From: Cylindrospermopsis raciborskii Cr2010
Lineage (GTDB): Bacteria; Cyanobacteriota; Cyanobacteriia; Cyanobacteriales; Nostocaceae
Assembly (NCBI RefSeq): GCF_003367075.2
Contig: NZ_CP065936.1
Location: forward strand, 330,001 to 362,000
Direction of reading: 5' to 3'
Length of the DNA: 32,000 bases
Position numbers and translations under genes: made by a program. Positions 3,497 to 11,092 of the stretch are shown piece after piece. Position 1 is the stretch's first letter; every line of letters starts with the position of its first letter. The notes under the pieces are model-generated. The model did no database searches. It saw only the letters and a list, made by a program, of their open reading frames with translations, and was not told the DNA's origin.

Positions 3497-5542
3497 CTAC
3501 GACTTTTCTATAAGCTGTTCGGGAAACATACATTTGTCAGAATCACAAGCAGTTGGCCCTGATTCTATTAATTCACCTAAATCATAACGACTTAGAGCTT
3601 GACAAAAATCTTCCGTTCTCCGTCGCAACTTTACCTGAGCGGATAACATTTGATATGTTTTCTGATCTATCGGTTCAAAGGGTAGACGAGGAAAGGTTTG
3701 AATATCATCAAATCTCCCTAGTATGGCTGCTGAAATATACCCTTCATCCTTCTGAATGGCTTCATATATGCGAGTTCCTAAGCATTCAACTTCGTCAGAT
3801 CTCAATTCTAAGGTTGCTGAGGTATTATGGGTAGTATAACACCTCTGTACCTCCATGACAAAATCTAACTGAGCCAAAGCAGAAAATTTGGATACATCTA
3901 TTTTGTCTGCTCCTGGTAAATCCGCCCAAGAAACCGCTACGGGGATTTCTACTAACCACTCACTACAACGGGGGTCAAAGGGATTATCCAGTAAATTACC
4001 TTGTTCGTCTTTATCAGATTGGGAAGGTATGACACTGTACCCATAATCCAAACAAGCTAGAGCTACTGGGTCGTTTTTACGGAAAGTAATCCGACGAATA
4101 AATCGTTGCGCTTTGGGAGGGTGCCAACCAGGAGAAGCACCTGTTAATAAGGATTTTGTGCCGCTAGGTTGAACAGTGGTACAACGATTGGGCCTTTTAA
4201 TCCCATGTTTGTCGCAATATTCCCAAACGGTTTGATGTACTATTTCTCGCCATTTATTGAGATATTTTTGCTCACCCCGTTTAAATATTAGTCCTTCCTG
4301 GGTTTCTGGTCTTCCCTGTTCCCACCAATGTAACCACTCCACACCAAAAGCATGAACAAAGAAGTCAAACAACCCCGTGAAGGAAACACCAACAATGGGA
4401 TCCAATTCTCGACTATGTTGATAGCGGATCTCCTGAAATTTGTGATTTAATAAGGCAGCTACGGATATAGCAGCTGCTTTAAAGGCTTCCTCCTGTTCCT
4501 TATAGTTATCAGGATCAATTTGGTTTAAATGTACTTCGGCTAAGTTACAATGGAAGTCAGCACCAATAATTTCACCACAGGGGTTTAAACCATATCTACC
4601 CAAACGATGTTCCAGCTCTGAATCTTCCATCTCTGGATAATTTTCTTTTATCCATGTTCTGGCCTGTCCTGTTGCATAAGCATTCAGAAACTGTTTTTTT
4701 AGTTCAAGGGTTTTGAGTAAATCAATATTTGCTCTAGCTACTGTTTCACCAGCCCATTGAATTGCTCCTTCACCACTATAATACTGTTTCTGAACAGCTG
4801 CAAGGCATTCTTCTAAAGTAGGTTTGTGATGAAACACTCGAGTATGATTGGCCATGCGCAAAGCATCTCTTTCTGGGTCTATGCTCCAGTTTCCTTGAGC
4901 ATCTTGTTTCCACAGATTATCTTTGGCTGTTGCTCCATTTTCATCCTCTGCAATGAATTGTCTCATACCCGCCGATCTCCGAATATTACCAGCAACAATT
5001 GATACGGCAGCTTCGTCTATTAATAGACAGCATTCGACGGAATTTAACTTTCTACCTACAGCTTGGTTGAGAATAGAAGCACAACGAGTATATAATCCGG
5101 ATAATTTGACTGGGTTAGCAACACCACCAAATCCCTTGAGGGTTTCTCCGGAGCGACGCACATCATCAAGATTTACACACACTTGAATATCATCGGTAAA
5201 GCGTATATCCGTAGAGAGTTCTAGAAGGGTTTGGTAGGAATTTACCCAACCTTCTCGACTATCTCCTACATAAATAGTCACCCGATTACCTTCTATAACT
5301 GTTTCTGTAAACTCCCGACGGTCTTTTTCTGGAGTGTTGCCAATTTTCCCCTGAATGGTCACCTGTAACCGATTACGAATGGGGGGTAATTGATTAATAT
5401 ACTGGGGTTCAATCACTGCTCCTGTACCACAACCCATCATGGCCAGATCCATCATTAAACCAAATGCTTGCCAATCTATGAGGTTTGTAGAAGTGCAGTT
5501 ATAAGCTCCAGAGAAATTTTTCGACTTTTTTAACCATTCCGT
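3497..5542 (-). CDS. nrdJ: class II (adenosylcobalamin-dependent) ribonucleotide reductase NrdJ, exon 2
   Basis: The frame is open from 5542 (TEWLKKSKNFSGAYNCTSTNLIDWQAFGLMMDLAMMGCGTGAV...) through the stop at 3497. It includes RNR active-site-type segments (NPCGEI, TTVQPSGT). An in-frame TAG lies immediately upstream of 5545, inside the intron. This exon encodes 681 aa. Confidence 0.9.
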   Translation of the reverse strand, partial: TEWLKKSKNFSGAYNCTSTNLIDWQAFGLMMDLAMMGCGTGAVIEPQYINQLPPIRNRLQVTIQGKIGNTPEKDRREFTETVIEGNRVTIYVGDSREGWVNSYQTLLELSTDIRFTDDIQVCVNLDDVRRSGETLKGFGGVANPVKLSGLYTRCASILNQAVGRKLNSVECCLLIDEAAVSIVAGNIRRSAGMRQFIAEDENGATAKDNLWKQDAQGNWSIDPERDALRMANHTRVFHHKPTLEECLAAVQKQYYSGEGAIQWAGETVARANIDLLKTLELKKQFLNAYATGQARTWIKENYPEMEDSELEHRLGRYGLNPCGEIIGADFHCNLAEVHLNQIDPDNYKEQEEAFKAAAISVAALLNHKFQEIRYQHSRELDPIVGVSFTGLFDFFVHAFGVEWLHWWEQGRPETQEGLIFKRGEQKYLNKWREIVHQTVWEYCDKHGIKRPNRCTTVQPSGTKSLLTGASPGWHPPKAQRFIRRITFRKNDPVALACLDYGYSVIPSQSDKDEQGNLLDNPFDPRCSEWLVEIPVAVSWADLPGADKIDVSKFSALAQLDFVMEVQRCYTTHNTSATLELRSDEVECLGTRIYEAIQKDEGYISAAILGRFDDIQTFPRLPFEPIDQKTYQMLSAQVKLRRRTEDFCQALSRYDLGELIESGPTACDSDKCMFPEQLIEKS

Positions 5543-5583
5543 ATGACCCTAAGCCACATTGTCTCCAATATGACTCGGCTTCA
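5543..5583 (-). ncRNA. group II intron domain VI with candidate branch-point A (5550)
   Basis: RNA reads UGAAGCCGAGUCAUAUUG-GAGA-CAAUGUGGCUUAGGGUCAU. CAUAUUG pairs with CAAUGUG around a GAGA loop, and the stem extends outward. An unpaired A lies 7 nt from the 3' splice site. Confidence 0.65.
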
Positions 5584-5617
5584 GAACCGTGCGTGATACT
5601 TTCGCATCACACGGCTC
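5584..5617 (-). ncRNA. group II intron domain V (catalytic hairpin)
   Basis: Minus strand reads GAGCCGUGUGAUGCGAAAGUAUCACGCACGGUUC, 34 nt. It has the AGC triad at positions 2-4, a GAAA tetraloop and a 2-nt bulge (CG) on the 3' arm, as in the DV consensus. Confidence 0.9.
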
Positions 5618-5635
5618 CTCAATGATTTGGCTCTT

Positions 5636-6919
5636 TTAAGAGTACCAATTTGGGGTTGATGTCTTGGTATAGGTGTCACACTGCTTGACAGCGTTGAGAA
5701 ATCCATGATGGTAGGTAAGGTACACCGGTTGACTTTCTTCAAACGCACGAAATACCCAATTAGCTTGGTCTTTGGAGCCAAAATATTTCTCGACCCACTG
5801 TTTGGTGGATTTGTGATTATGTCTGGCCTTCACCCAGGCAATTAATTTTAAGGTCATTAGGTGGTCTAGCTTTTGGAATGTTTTAGCACTATTAACAGGG
5901 AAATAATAGTTACTCCATCTGGTAATGATGGGATTTAGTCGTTTAATTAAGTCTAATTGGGATTGACAAGACTTAAATTTATCTATTTCTTGAGCTAGTT
6001 CCCCATAATGGGTTTTAATTGCTTCTTGACTGGGCTGGATGAAAGTTTGATACCTTTGTGGTTGGGAATGGGTTTTGATTTCATATTGGCGGATATTAAA
6101 GTCCAGAAAATTGAACCCAGGGGATTTTGTACCCTTGAGAGTTTGCTCCAAGTTGATTTGTATACCTAGATCACTCAGAAACTTCTCAATCAGTATTTTA
6201 GCCTTGATAATTACATCGAATTCAGAATCTAGCAGTGCAAATTCGCTGCCATGTCTAATCAAGGTTATTTCCTCTTTTTTACCTGGAATAGTTTTGCCAT
6301 ATTCTCGGACAATTTTTTCCATGCCATGGAGAGCAATACTGACTAAAAGCGGGGAAAGTAAACTACCGGGATGGATTATCTCTTGATTTAATAACCATGA
6401 GTTAAGATTGTATATACCCGATTTCATTCCTACCCTTATTTGCCTACGGAGTTTTGGGAAAGTATTTATCTTACTTAATAGCTTTTCGTAGTCAATTTGC
6501 TCGAAGTGTTGGGCAAGATTGGCACTGATAACATACTTGCTACCATACCTCATTGCCTCTTTAATAGCCATTATAGGATCCATATAAGTTTTACCCGGTC
6601 GGAATCCATAACTATGAGACTCAAATTTAGCCTCCCACTCAGGTTCTAGAGCCAGTTTAATCAATAATTGTTGTGCTTGGTATTCTGTTCTTACTTGGCG
6701 AATAGCAAGCATTTTGGCAGACCAGGAATTCAGCAGAGTCTTTTGCAGTTTACGCACTACCTTAACATCTCCCCGACTAGAGGCTTGATAAATTCTCTGT
6801 TGCAACTTGTACACAGCCCTTTCTAGCTTACGCCAGTTTATCTGTGCCCATACCACCATCGGTGTTTTCCGTGTTTTAGTCATTTTCATTGCTATATGAA
6901 ACTCTATCTTCCAAATCAT
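5636..6919 (-). CDS. group II intron-encoded protein: degenerate reverse transcriptase retaining the maturase (X) domain, no En domain
   Basis: RT0-like INWRKLERAVYKLQQRIY, ALEPEWEAKF, SYGFRPG, SPLLVSIALHG. X-domain RLNPIITRWSNYY. YADD position reads HGSE; RT1/RT2 (TAGVDG, RPLGIPT) are absent. Likely start at MKMTKT (6889). Confidence 0.9.
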   Translation of the reverse strand: MIWKIEFHIAMKMTKTRKTPMVVWAQINWRKLERAVYKLQQRIYQASSRGDVKVVRKLQKTLLNSWSAKMLAIRQVRTEYQAQQLLIKLALEPEWEAKFESHSYGFRPGKTYMDPIMAIKEAMRYGSKYVISANLAQHFEQIDYEKLLSKINTFPKLRRQIRVGMKSGIYNLNSWLLNQEIIHPGSLLSPLLVSIALHGMEKIVREYGKTIPGKKEEITLIRHGSEFALLDSEFDVIIKAKILIEKFLSDLGIQINLEQTLKGTKSPGFNFLDFNIRQYEIKTHSQPQRYQTFIQPSQEAIKTHYGELAQEIDKFKSCQSQLDLIKRLNPIITRWSNYYFPVNSAKTFQKLDHLMTLKLIAWVKARHNHKSTKQWVEKYFGSKDQANWVFRAFEESQPVYLTYHHGFLNAVKQCDTYTKTSTPNWYS

Positions 6920-7126
6920 CGGGAATCTGTCAGCTTATTCATACCCATTACAGGTAGACCTTTGCTTCTGATTCCATCTCTTTTTATTAGAGCTTGCGGA
7001 TTGGTTCCTACTTCCCTATCGACCCCGGAAAGAGCTGCTAATAAAATTACTTCGTTCCGTATAACCATTGATTTGAGTGTTTAGGATGGCACTACTCAGC
7101 CGGAGACAGGAAAGCGTGACCTTAAT

Positions 7127-7132
7127 GGTGGT
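7127..7132 (-). other. candidate EBS1 of the intron
   Basis: Minus strand ACCACC is perfectly complementary to the last six nucleotides of exon 1 (GGUGGU, 7509..7504). It lies about 370 nt into the intron. Confidence 0.5.
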
Positions 7133-7503
7133 ACTTTTGGGTTCCTTAATGTCTCTTTGTCTTTTGACAGCAGCGTATCAACCATTTTTTTCGCTACTTG
7201 CTAGGTGACGACTGTTTAGATGTACCTTCACTTTCGTTATCCATGCACTCCTGCTCGCTGGGATTCACCTCATGGTTTGGTGTTACCAGCTTTTTTCCCC
7301 GCTTTACCCTTTGATTACCAGTCCCTAGGTAGGGGAAATGCTTTCACTCCCACGCTTGGAGGATAGGACTCTGTGTCTATCACATCACCTATAAGGTTAT
7401 ACAGTTATTTGGGTTCGGTTAACCGTACTTTTTTATTCGGTTGTTGAACCCACCGAATCATCCCCCGGTTCAATTAAACCAGTTTCGATTCAACGAATCA
7501 CAC

Positions 7504-7761
7504 ACCACCAACCCACAACCATCTTCCACTCGGTAAGGCTTTCATCTGTAGTTGCATTTTTTCTAACAGTGCAGTTTCTTCCAAGTTGAGTTTTCCTAAC
7601 TCTACTAGTCCTTTTAAAGTGCGATCGCATACATCGCTCCAGGATTCTCTTAATCCTGTTTGGGTGCGACGGCTATAGGTCCTGAAAAACACAGGATTGG
7701 CTGCGGGAGCAGTTTCGGGAAAGGACGCAATCTGGCGTGGACGTTTCAGTTCTTGAACCAT
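7504..7761 (-). CDS. nrdJ: class II ribonucleotide reductase NrdJ, exon 1 (86 aa)
   Basis: MVQELKRPRQIASFPETAPAANPVFFRTYSRR...SGRWLWVGG. The ORF-track stop (7498-7500) lies inside the intron 5' GUGUGA. Confidence 0.9.
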
Positions 7762-7909: not shown

Positions 7910-8518
7910 CTATAGTACAATTAATCCCAAGAGAATACCTAGGATTTTATTAAGATCACTGATATAGTAGTTATTTAGGTCAATCAATAACTTGCTTTCT
8001 ACTAACTGCAAAAATTTCCAAATGTCCCCTGTGGTTAAGGCTCCATAAATAGTTTTAATTTCAGGTGATCCATTATGTTGCTGTTGATTGAACAGCTGAG
8101 CTGCTAACATGGTAGCTGCACACTGACCCAAGCCAGCTTTAATGTTTTCATTTTTTGCTTCGACAATAATTGCCACAGGAGCATTAATAATTAATTGCTC
8201 CCGAGAGAGACTGATAATAAAATCACAATAGCCAGTTAAACCTTGTTCAGGATCCACATTAAAATCACTGCCAGAAAACAGACTAATTTGATAATTGGCC
8301 CTGCGTCGTACTTCCAACAAAATAGGGGCGATGATGAATTCTGATCGCGCTTTTTCCGTATTGATTGCTAGGGCCATTTCCATAGTTTCCCCCAGAGTGC
8401 TGATTAATTTATCACTAGGTTCCACGGAGTTGACATGGGCAAATAAATCCGGATCTTCATTAATTTCGATGTGAAATTTATTTCTAAATTGAGTTAAACT
8501 AAAATCACTGTACGCCAT
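7910..8518 (-). CDS. stand-alone PD-(D/E)xK nuclease-fold protein (HsdR-N-terminal-like), paralogue 1
   Basis: Motifs TEKARSE ... GYCDF ... IIVEAK ... GLGQC match the E / D / ExK / Q core of restriction-endonuclease-like folds. Clear homologue of 19225..19827. The ATG at 8518 (MAYSDF) matches the paralogue start; the track start at 8527 is GTG. Confidence 0.8.
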   Translation of the reverse strand: MAYSDFSLTQFRNKFHIEINEDPDLFAHVNSVEPSDKLISTLGETMEMALAINTEKARSEFIIAPILLEVRRRANYQISLFSGSDFNVDPEQGLTGYCDFIISLSREQLIINAPVAIIVEAKNENIKAGLGQCAATMLAAQLFNQQQHNGSPEIKTIYGALTTGDIWKFLQLVESKLLIDLNNYYISDLNKILGILLGLIVL

Positions 8519-8594
8519 TTTCTTCACCTTTGGTGCGGTATATAATTACAATTAAAAACACCAACTAAAAATCCCCCAATATTTTTTCACCATA

Positions 8595-10549: not shown

Positions 10550-11092
10550 TTAATGTTCTATTATATAGCCAGCCCACATAAAACTAGCAGTTAATACGGT
10601 AGCTAGACCCACCAAAATACCCCTTAATAGTTTGACCTGGGAGCGGAGTTGTGTTACTTCATGGTTAACTTCATAAATTTGGTCTTGAGTCATGGGAGGT
10701 AGGGAATTAATATCTTTAATTACTTCCACCCTAGGACTTGGTAAGGGTGTAGGTTGGGGGGGTTTAAACTCTATTTGGGTATGTAACCAGTCAGCAATGA
10801 GTTGGGGGCAATTTTTTTTGAACCATTGCCAAGCAATCATCCGGAATGCGGGTTTGGATGTTTTCGAGATCCATTTTAAGAGCTTATTTATAGTACCGTA
10901 GCGAAACTTTTGGTTAATTAGATTATTGGCACCGATATCATAAAGACAATTCAAGATTAGTTTAATAGTGGACTCTTCCCTTTGAAACATACTAGATAAT
11001 AGTATTAACACATCCTGCATTAGTTTTTCTTCTAATTGAGCTTCGGTGGGTAATTTCCCGAATTGGTTGGGTGCGGGCAATTGTTGAGACAT
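10550..11092 (-). CDS. hypothetical protein with C-terminal transmembrane anchor
   Basis: 180-aa ORF. Hydrophobic C-terminal segment LLRGILVGLATVLTASFMWAGYII and a proline-rich linker PPQPTPLPSP. No family recognised. Confidence 0.6.
   Translation of the reverse strand: MSQQLPAPNQFGKLPTEAQLEEKLMQDVLILLSSMFQREESTIKLILNCLYDIGANNLINQKFRYGTINKLLKWISKTSKPAFRMIAWQWFKKNCPQLIADWLHTQIEFKPPQPTPLPSPRVEVIKDINSLPPMTQDQIYEVNHEVTQLRSQVKLLRGILVGLATVLTASFMWAGYIIEH

What the first reader, a model, noticed from the sequence alone, without database searches (positions are those of the whole stretch)
5543..7503. The essential ribonucleotide reductase gene nrdJ is split by an apparently splicing-competent group II intron
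Seen in the sequence: two minus-strand ORFs (7498..7761 and 3497..5455) are the N- and C-terminal parts of one class II RNR. Exon 1 reads ...SGRWLWVGG and then runs into GUGUGA. The exon-2 frame is open from 5542 (TEWLKKSKNFSGAYNCTSTNLIDWQAFGLMMDLAMMGCGTGAV), directly after an in-frame TAG and the sequence ...GGGUCAU. Joining 7504 to 5542 gives a continuous 767-aa protein. The 1,961 nt between them carry a 5' GUGYG, a textbook 34-nt domain V (5584..5617: AGC triad, 2-nt bulge, GAAA loop), a domain VI hairpin with a bulged A 7 nt from the 3' end, an ORF in the domain IV position, and ACCACC (7127..7132) complementary to the last six exon nucleotides GGUGGU. Bacterial group II introns usually avoid essential coding sequence, so a host whose only visible RNR depends on splicing is unusual. 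As far as I recall, group II introns inside a cyanobacterial RNR gene have been reported for Trichodesmium erythraeum; whether this insertion site is the same is unknown.
Basis: partly seen in the sequence, partly recalled or inferred. Interest (0 to 1): 0.75.

Follow-up and report, generated by a model that had tools for sequence, protein, structure and literature searches.

The report
Fixed, immobilised intron splitting nrdJ
The gene for the cell's B12-dependent ribonucleotide reductase is really interrupted by a self-splicing group II intron. The same kind of intron, at the same site, is already known from Trichodesmium, but this copy has lost its mobility enzymes and kept only the protein part that helps splicing.

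Summary
Minus-strand exons 7761..7504 and 5542..3497 join in frame into a 767-aa class II ribonucleotide reductase (RTPR type), and the join is seamless against the family profile. In 79 other cyanobacterial nrdJ genes the two parts are contiguous at exactly this codon boundary.

The 1,961 nt between the exons are a group II intron:
- The 5' end is GUGUG, and Rfam detects domains V/VI.
- A bulged A lies 7 nt from the 3' end.
- EBS1 co-varies with the exon sequence.
- The D1-D3 fold is supported by 44 compensatory pairs.

1. The intron protein is degenerate. RT motifs 1-2 are deleted, YADD has become HGSE, and the HNH domain is gone, but domain X is kept. It evolves under purifying selection (dN/dS about 0.2).
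2. The intron belongs to a lineage that always sits at this nrdJ site. Full-length mobile copies occur in Nostoc, Calothrix, Microseira and Trichodesmium.
3. No intron-less allele was found in Cylindrospermopsis/Raphidiopsis. The ribozyme changes about 20-fold more slowly than synonymous sites.

It is a new member of a known kind, and splicing was not tested directly. Moderate interest.

The parts
7504..7761 (-). nrdJ exon 1 (86 codons, ends ...RWLWVGG). IBS2 is UGGGU at 7515..7511 and IBS1 is GGUGGU at 7509..7504.
   Evidence: Pfam RNR_Alpha and TIGR02505 profile positions 18-90. Contiguous with exon 2 in 79 other species.
5543..7503 (-). Group II intron, 1,961 nt, with GUGUG at the 5' end and CAU at the 3' end.
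   Evidence: The boundaries are identical in 11 homologous introns at the same nrdJ site.
7051..7497 (-). Domain I. It holds EBS2 (ACCUA, 7206..7202), EBS1 (ACCACC, 7132..7127) and a tetraloop-receptor-like CAUGG/CCUAAA pair.
   Evidence: RNAalifold consensus with compensatory pairs. EBS1 co-varies with IBS1 across loci. Coordinates.
6982..7046 (-). Domain II.
   Evidence: Helices 24-27 of alignment A2. In helix 24, 7 of 13 pairs show compensatory change.
6922..6975 (-). Domain III.
   Evidence: Helices 28-30 of alignment A2, with 6 compensatory pairs.
5620..6921 (-). Domain IV. The closing stem pairs CGAUGAUUUGG (6921..6911) with CCAAAUCAUUG (5630..5620).
   Evidence: Read directly from the sequence. 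Both strands are conserved in the full-length relatives.
5636..6919 (-). Intron-encoded protein, an ORF of 427 aa. The likely start is ATG 6889 or 6883. It is maturase-only: RT0 plus a degenerate RT3-7 region plus domain X. RT1-2 are absent, YADD has become HGSE, and there is no DNA-binding or HNH domain.
   Evidence: Pfam RVT_N, RVT_1 and GIIM. TIGR04416 scores 141 bits against a cut-off of 300. Alignments A1 and A4. dN/dS 0.22. The AlphaFold model matches the T.el4h maturase with TM 0.70.
5584..5617 (-). Domain V: 34 nt, with an AGC triad, a 2-nt bulge and a GAAA loop.
   Evidence: Rfam RF04357 and RF00029. Alignment fold A3.
5546..5579 (-). Domain VI, with the bulged branch-point A at 5550.
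   Evidence: The stem is kept through U-G / C-G / U-A changes in relatives.
3497..5542 (-). nrdJ exon 2 (681 codons plus stop). The first 29 codons have no start codon of their own.
   Evidence: TIGR02505 profile positions 91-723, 675 bits. The first 29 codons show 7 synonymous and 1 non-synonymous difference against L081. dN/dS 0.08-0.09.

Best explanation
A chloroplast-like (probably IIB-type) group II intron sits between codons 86 and 87 of nrdJ. The organism is Cylindrospermopsis/Raphidiopsis-like.

Proposed mechanism:
- The pre-mRNA is transcribed through the intron.
- The ribozyme (D1-D3, D5, D6) folds and recognises the 5' exon by two pairings: EBS1 ACCACC with IBS1 GGUGGU, and EBS2 ACCUA with IBS2 UGGGU.
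- The ribozyme splices by branching at the bulged A at 5550, joining ...GGU to ACG... and producing the mRNA for a 767-aa NrdJ.
- The 427-aa protein encoded in domain IV acts only as a maturase. It binds the intron RNA through its RT0, palm-remnant and X/thumb surfaces and promotes folding.
- That protein can no longer reverse-transcribe or cut DNA, so the intron is immobile and is inherited vertically as a fixed part of the gene.

The intron descends from a mobile lineage with an RT-X-HNH protein that homes into this one conserved nrdJ site in many cyanobacteria.

Shown here: the anatomy, the homology, the insertion site, the covariation and the selection patterns. Inferred: splicing in vivo, the maturase activity and the branching pathway.
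For: Join and host gene:
- The join is seamless against TIGR02505, which matches positions 18-90 in exon 1 and 91-723 in exon 2.
- The gap is 0 nt in 79 intron-less loci.

Ribozyme:
- Rfam detects DV/DVI above the gathering score.
- The D1-D3 consensus has 154 pairs and 97.1% of cells paired. It has 44 pairs with compensatory change, against 17.2 +/- 2.8 in shuffles (0/500) and 4-9 in slid controls.
- The DV/DVI fold has z = -4.85.
- The middle pair of IBS1/EBS1 co-varies: U:A here, C:G in L085, U:G in L086, A:U in L088.

Selection (window versus L081):
- Synonymous divergence is about 0.2, but the ribozyme differs at only 4/584 and 1/93 positions.
- dN/dS for nrdJ is 0.08-0.09. For the intron protein it is 0.22, and for its X domain 0.11-0.15.
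- The 29 exon-2 codons that lack any start codon show 7 synonymous and 1 non-synonymous change.

Degeneracy of the intron protein:
- Only the 4 Cylindrospermopsis-type sequences of 87 lack the 57-73-residue RT1-2 block and carry S/N in RT3 and HGSE in place of YADD. All 4 also lack the HNH region.
- The AlphaFold model (pLDDT 74) matches the T.el4h maturase in intron RNPs: 8FLI_B with TM 0.70 and 6ME0_C with TM 0.68.

Lineage:
- Full-length relatives in Microseira, Nostoc (two loci), Calothrix and Trichodesmium lie at the identical site.
- No junction-spanning NrdJ above 82% identity was found.
- Trichodesmium nrdJ introns splice in vivo (PMC4143802, Table 2).
Against: - No RNA data were available, so splicing, the branch point and the maturase requirement are inferred.
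- Peripheral D1 hairpins are shortened relative to the full-length relatives. This could reduce self-splicing.
- EBS2 has a G-U wobble in this copy (ACCUA against ACCCA in L001).
- L087, and L088/L092, show one mismatch each in EBS1-IBS1.
- Assignment to the CL/IIB class rests on similarity to T.el4h and cyanobacterial relatives, not on a formal phylogeny.
- Rfam's RF00029 alignment in the window chose a DVI that runs into exon 2 (to 5501). Only its DV part is reliable there.
Confidence: 0.88

Rival explanations
1. The intron is a dead insertion and nrdJ is a pseudogene. The cell would make dNTPs with another RNR encoded elsewhere.
For: The intron protein is degenerate. The rest of the genome could not be inspected.
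Against: Both exons keep intact frames in every copy seen. Their dN/dS is 0.08-0.09 at a dS of 0.12-0.19. The ribozyme is about 20-fold more conserved than synonymous sites. DV, DVI and EBS1/2 are all intact.
Confidence: 0.02
2. This is a fractured gene. The 87-aa and 652-aa ORFs would be translated separately and assemble without RNA splicing.
For: Gene callers annotate two ORFs. Split RNR genes exist in phages (PMC2677866).
Against: The 29 codons between the 3' splice site and the first ATG of exon 2 have no start codon and follow an in-frame UAG. They are nevertheless under strong protein-level constraint, with 7 synonymous and 1 non-synonymous change. This model gives no reason for the extreme conservation of the ribozyme.
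Confidence: 0.03
3. The intron splices on its own or with host factors. The ORF would then be a decaying relic, or would serve something other than splicing.
For: Some bacterial group II introns self-splice without any intron-encoded protein (C.te.I1; PMC4424553). The C-terminal tail of the ORF evolves almost neutrally, with dN/dS 0.3-1.0.
Against: The ORF is open in all five sequenced variants. dN/dS is 0.22 overall and 0.11-0.15 in domain X. The RT0 and X residues that are invariant in mobile relatives are retained.
Confidence: 0.07
4. The intron is still mobile, using an RT/endonuclease supplied in trans by another intron in the genome.
For: Trans-acting intron-encoded proteins are documented in a cyanobacterium (Meng et al. 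2005, as cited in PMC4649490 and PMC4424553).
Against: Every copy found in genomes and metagenomes is in nrdJ at one site. No second copy lies in the window. The phylogenetic pattern fits vertical descent, with intron and exon dS of similar size.
Confidence: 0.03

Closest known systems
Trichodesmium nrdJ (RIR) group II introns (Liu, Yang & Meng 2003, J Biol Chem 278:46826; in vivo splicing in Pfreundt et al. 2014, PMC4143802)
   Same: The host gene is the same. For the 5'-most intron the codon boundary WVGG|TEW is also the same (L090, L092). The ribozyme is alignable, with compensatory changes. The intron proteins are homologous, with 42% BLAST identity.
   Different: The Trichodesmium copy keeps RT1-2 and the HNH domain (563 aa), although its motifs read YADN and LDAEI. 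The Trichodesmium gene also carries further introns and inteins, whereas the window gene has only this one interruption.
Full-length nrdJ-site introns of Nostoc, Calothrix and Microseira (L085-L089)
   Same: The insertion site is identical. The ribozyme 5' part is 85-87% identical and the 3' part 92-97% identical. The D4, DV and DVI sequences match.
   Different: These encode 599-612-aa proteins with RT, X, D and HNH regions and an intact YADD. Their ORF reads through DV and DVI. The window copy has lost about 170 codons and stops before DV.
MatK / trnK intron and other organellar introns with degenerate intron proteins (PMC4424553)
   Same: The state is the same: an RT-dead protein with domain X conserved, an immobile intron in an essential gene, and vertical inheritance.
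   Different: MatK belongs to a IIA chloroplast intron and serves several introns. This is a bacterial chromosomal intron from a cyanobacterial lineage. There is no evidence that its protein serves other introns, and it is not a phylogenetic member of the MatK family.
T.el4h intron RNP of Thermosynechococcus (PDB 6ME0, 8FLI)
   Same: It is the closest solved intron protein by sequence (E = 5e-37) and by predicted fold (TM 0.68-0.70). Both are cyanobacterial chloroplast-like introns.
   Different: T.el4h is an active retroelement that is not located in nrdJ.

Membership tests
Group II intron ribozyme | Domain V: a 34-nt helix with a catalytic AGC triad, a 2-nt bulge and a GNRA loop. | tested here: met
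   RF04357 scores 54.4 bits (gathering score 53) and RF00029 scores 51.5 bits (gathering score 40). Fold.
Group II intron ribozyme | A 5' GUGYG and a 3' AY at boundaries that restore the host reading frame. | tested here: met
   GUGUG...CAU. The join is in frame and seamless against the profile and 79 orthologues.
Group II intron ribozyme | Domain VI with a bulged adenosine 7-8 nt from the 3' splice site. | tested here: met
   The A at 5550 has 7 nt downstream of it.
Group II intron ribozyme | EBS1/IBS1 and EBS2/IBS2 pairings with the 5' exon. | tested here: met
   ACCACC pairs with GGUGGU and co-varies across loci. ACCUA pairs with UGGGU.
Group II intron ribozyme | A six-domain secondary structure supported by covariation. 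| tested here: met
   44 of 154 pairs are compensatory, and 0 of 500 shuffles reach this number. The D4 stem was read directly from the sequence.
Group II intron ribozyme | Splicing with lariat formation. | not testable with these tools
   No RNA data were available. Splicing is inferred from selection on the exons and the ribozyme.
Mobile group II retroelement (RT-maturase-endonuclease intron protein, TIGR04416) | An intact RT active site (RT3 Asp, RT5 YADD) and the fingers motifs RT1-2. | tested here: not met
   ISANL replaces LDADI, HGSE replaces YADD, and the RT1-2 block is absent. The score is 141 bits against a cut-off of 300.
Mobile group II retroelement (RT-maturase-endonuclease intron protein, TIGR04416) | A DNA-binding region and an HNH endonuclease domain. 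| tested here: not met
   There is no PF01844 hit. The region is deleted in the alignment.
Mobile group II retroelement (RT-maturase-endonuclease intron protein, TIGR04416) | A maturase domain X (GIIM). | tested here: met
   PF08388 with E = 7.5e-16. dN/dS 0.11-0.15.
Class II monomeric ribonucleoside-triphosphate reductase (NrdJ/RTPR, TIGR02505) | A full-length match to the equivalog profile above its cut-off. | tested here: met
   Exon 2 alone scores 675 bits against a cut-off of 340. Exon 1 supplies profile positions 18-90.
nrdJ WVGG|T-site intron lineage (includes a Trichodesmium RIR intron) | The same insertion point, with a homologous ribozyme and intron protein. | tested here: met
Chloroplast-like (CL) class / IIB ribozyme | Placement of the intron protein in the CL clade, and IIB-specific motifs (EBS3, coordination loop). 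| not tested
   The evidence is indirect only. The nearest relatives are cyanobacterial and the nearest solved structure is T.el4h. No class phylogeny was built and EBS3 was not mapped.

The most novel reading that the evidence does not exclude
The intron may have been kept in the smallest known Nostocales genomes because the host now uses maturase-dependent splicing as a gate on ribonucleotide reductase production. This would make it a domesticated regulatory intron in a free-living bacterium, rather than a merely tolerated relic. The ORF's retreat from DV/DVI, which uncouples translation from ribozyme folding, would be part of that adaptation.
Probability: 0.1. Interest if true: 0.65.

Novelty: new member of a known kind. 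Interest (0 to 1): 0.4.

Why it matters
Most bacterial group II introns behave as selfish retroelements located outside housekeeping genes (PMC4424553). This copy shows the organelle-like end state inside a free-living, culturable bacterium. It sits in an essential DNA-precursor gene, no intron-less allele was found across the genus, it cannot move, and its protein is reduced to a maturase that is still under selection.

Mobile full-length relatives sit at the very same site in other cyanobacteria. Together they form a natural series for studying how a retroelement turns into a splicing-only intron. That transition is usually studied only in chloroplasts and mitochondria.

There is also a practical point. 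Automatic annotation splits this nrdJ into two "genes" and labels the maturase a reverse transcriptase.

Tried and rejected
- **Metagenome scan with the intron-protein alignment.** It returned mostly unrelated group II lineages. Only L091 and L092 were nrdJ-site introns.
- **Literature.** Liu 2003 and Meng 2007 are not held. No held paper mentions an intron in Cylindrospermopsis or Raphidiopsis.
- **An alternative EBS2.** AACCCA near intron position 95 was considered and rejected, because it is not conserved in relatives. The conserved D1 loop at 7206..7202 fits instead.
- **Gamma-gamma' covariation.** I looked for it by eye, comparing Trichodesmium (3' ...AAC) with the others (3' ...AU), and it was not evident.
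- **Rfam on related loci.** It found no additional intron family that would explain the downstream break at about codon 410.
- **Other features of the window.** Tandem-repeat and tRNA scans were empty. The neighbouring genes are ordinary housekeeping genes, and no second RNR lies in the window.
- **A sampling caveat.** The 80 loci were ranked by a contiguous exon-2 match. They therefore under-sample nrdJ genes that carry other interruptions, and "1 of 80" is not a true frequency of the intron.
Full report
**1. Checking the observation**

The minus strand carries an 87-codon ORF (7761..7498) and a 652-codon ORF (5455..3497).
- Exon 1 reads ...SGRWLWVGG and is followed by GUGUGAUUCG.
- The exon-2 frame is open from 5542, directly after GCU-UAG-GGU-CAU.
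- Joining 7504 to 5542 gives 258 + 2046 nt in frame, a 767-aa product.
- NCBIfam's equivalog model for the adenosylcobalamin-dependent ribonucleoside-triphosphate reductase (TIGR02505) matches profile positions 18-90 in exon 1 and 91-723 in exon 2. The join therefore neither adds nor removes a residue.
- I fetched 80 cyanobacterial nrdJ loci with exon 2 and located both parts by tblastn. In 79 species they abut with a gap of exactly 0 nt. Only Raphidiopsis brookii D9 has an insert (1,962 nt) at the same place.
- The junction lies in the nearly invariant motif PSGRWLW(V/I)GG|T(E/D)W.

**2. The intron ribozyme**

- **Rfam.** At gathering thresholds it reports only two hits in the whole window, and both are here. 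They are a group II D5 model (54.4 bits, E = 7e-10) and Intron_gpII (51.5 bits against a gathering score of 40) at 5620..5580.
- **Domains V and VI.** Domain V is 5617..5584 and has the AGC triad, a 2-nt bulge and a GAAA loop. Domain VI is 5579..5546 with a bulged A at 5550, 7 nt before the 3' splice site. The 90-nt 3' segment folds with z = -4.85.
- **Domains I-III.** I aligned the 5' ~600 nt of ten introns that occupy this same nrdJ site. RNAalifold gives 154 pairs forming D1 (7497..7051), D2 (7046..6982) and D3 (6975..6922).
- **Covariation.** Counting on that alignment gives 97.1% of cells paired and 44 pairs with changes on both sides. Shuffles give 17.2 +/- 2.8 (0 of 500 reach 44), and versions with partners slid by 1-3 columns give 4-9. 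The structure was derived from these same sequences, which favours it in the slid control. The shuffle result on the number of pairs with a change on both sides is the more trustworthy figure.
- **Domain IV.** It is closed by CGAUGAUUUGG (6921..6911) pairing with CCAAAUCAUUG (5630..5620).

**3. Exon recognition**

- Its middle position co-varies with the third base of the Gly codon in IBS1: U:A here, C:G in Microseira (L085), U:G in one Nostoc (L086), and A:U in Calothrix (L088). There is one U:U mismatch, in L087.
- EBS2 is the conserved D1 loop (A)ACCCA, which reads ACCUA here (7206..7202). It pairs with UGGGU (7515..7511).
- Variation in the target occurs only at codon third positions.

**4. 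The domain IV ORF is a maturase remnant**

- The 427-aa ORF (5636..6919, with the probable start at 6889 or 6883) hits RVT_N, RVT_1 and GIIM. It reaches only 141 bits on the RT/maturase equivalog, whose cut-off is 300.
- I aligned it with about 600-aa relatives (A1; 87 sequences in A4). The window protein and its three close variants are the only ones that:
  - lack the 57-73-residue block holding RT motifs 1-2;
  - read ISANL where 78-80 of 87 read LDADI;
  - read HGSE where 77-83 of 87 read YADD.
- All four also lack the C-terminal DNA-binding/HNH region, which is deleted in the alignment.
- Domain X and the N-terminal RT0 region retain the invariant residues.
- The AlphaFold model (pLDDT 74, pTM 0.66) is most similar to the T.el4h maturase as seen inside intron RNPs. 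The best matches are 8FLI_B (TM 0.70) and 6ME0_C (TM 0.68).
- This protein should therefore bind the intron. It cannot polymerise DNA or cut a target, so the intron cannot home by itself.

**5. Evidence that it still works**

Five sequence variants of this degenerate intron exist. They are the window, R. brookii D9 (L001), and three metagenome or SRA contigs (L081, L083, L084). All lie in nrdJ at this site.

| Comparison | Result |
|---|---|
| Window vs L081, synonymous divergence | about 0.19-0.22 in both nrdJ and the ORF |
| Window vs L081, ribozyme 5' part | 4 of 584 positions differ |
| Window vs L081, ribozyme 3' part | 1 of 93 positions differ |
| nrdJ dN/dS | 0.08-0.09 |
| Intron ORF dN/dS, whole | 0.22 |
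| Intron ORF dN/dS, domain X | 0.11-0.15 |
| Intron ORF dN/dS, RT remnant | about 0.2 |
| Intron ORF dN/dS, last 40 residues | 0.3-1.0 |
| First 29 codons of exon 2 | 7 synonymous, 1 non-synonymous difference |

The first 29 codons of exon 2 have no start codon and follow an in-frame UAG. They can only be translated after splicing, yet they are clearly constrained at the protein level. Taken together, these patterns are hard to explain unless the RNA splices and the protein helps.

A search with the junction-spanning N-terminal 282 aa found uninterrupted NrdJ proteins only at 82% identity or less (Sphaerospermopsis and others). No intron-less allele from the Cylindrospermopsis/Raphidiopsis group appeared.

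**6. Origin**

- The closest full-length proteins (47-57% BLAST identity) were traced to their contigs. They come from Microseira wollei (L085), two Nostoc (L086, L087), Calothrix (L088/L089) and Trichodesmium (L090, L092).
- All are in nrdJ at the identical codon boundary.
- Their ribozymes are 85-87% identical (5' part) and 92-97% identical (3' part) to the window copy.
- This is therefore a site-specific homing lineage. The window copy is a derivative that lost mobility once, in the ancestor of the Cylindrospermopsis/Raphidiopsis group.

**7. Comparison with what is known**

- Group II introns and inteins in the Trichodesmium RNR gene were described by Liu et al. 2003. Three nrdJ introns were shown to splice in vivo (PMC4143802, Table 2).
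- A trans-acting intron-encoded protein was shown by Meng et al. 2005 (cited in PMC4649490).
- The Zimmerly and Semper review (PMC4424553) makes three relevant points. Most bacterial introns avoid housekeeping genes. Some cyanobacterial CL introns do reside in them. RT-dead proteins such as MatK are chiefly an organellar phenomenon, with "limited numbers" in bacteria.
- I found no held paper that describes this Cylindrospermopsis/Raphidiopsis intron.

**8. Verdict**

The feature is real and was correctly interpreted. It is a new member of a known kind.

The added value is that it is an immobilised, maturase-only, lineage-fixed copy with mobile siblings at the same site.

Direct proof of splicing, proof of the maturase requirement, and a check for a second RNR elsewhere in the genome all remain to be done.

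Noticed in passing
L085:5717-5806 (also L087, L088); window 5543..5638 (-): In the full-length relatives the intron protein's ORF reads straight through domains V and VI (…EEPCDAKVSRTVLKPSHIGDNVA*). Its UAG stop codon contains the bulged branch-point A. In the window the ORF stops at TAA (5638..5636), just before the 3' strand of D4, although the old downstream frame is still readable.
   Followed up: partly
L090:2106-3797 (P0032, Trichodesmium sp. MAG_R03): The Trichodesmium intron protein at the same nrdJ site keeps RT1-2 and HNH but reads YADN and LDAEI at the catalytic motifs. It may also be impaired as a reverse transcriptase.
   Followed up: no
L085:5909-9065, L087:5909-8219, L088:5909-9800, L090:3972-8797: Other cyanobacterial nrdJ genes that carry this intron have further interruptions downstream: inteins with LAGLIDADG domains and a break near codon 410. 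About a hundred NrdJ database entries stop at roughly 410 aa. Rfam at gathering threshold names no extra intron there. The window gene has none of these interruptions.
   Followed up: partly
P0008 and P0012 (alignment A1, columns 130-145): Two full-length nrdJ-site intron proteins carry a 15-residue insertion (HGSRYNGGNPRNALP) inside RT motif 2 that their siblings lack.
   Followed up: no
window 7910..8527 (-): A 205-aa ORF immediately upstream of nrdJ has no Pfam match. The 180-aa ORF at 10550..11092 (-) also has none.
   Followed up: no
window 7420..7480 (-); L001:6039-6617: The peripheral D1 hairpins are progressively trimmed. Full-length relatives have about 55 more nt than the window copy, and R. 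brookii D9 and L083 lack a further 23 nt (while carrying a 5-nt insertion elsewhere in D1). This suggests ongoing size reduction of the ribozyme periphery.
   Followed up: partly
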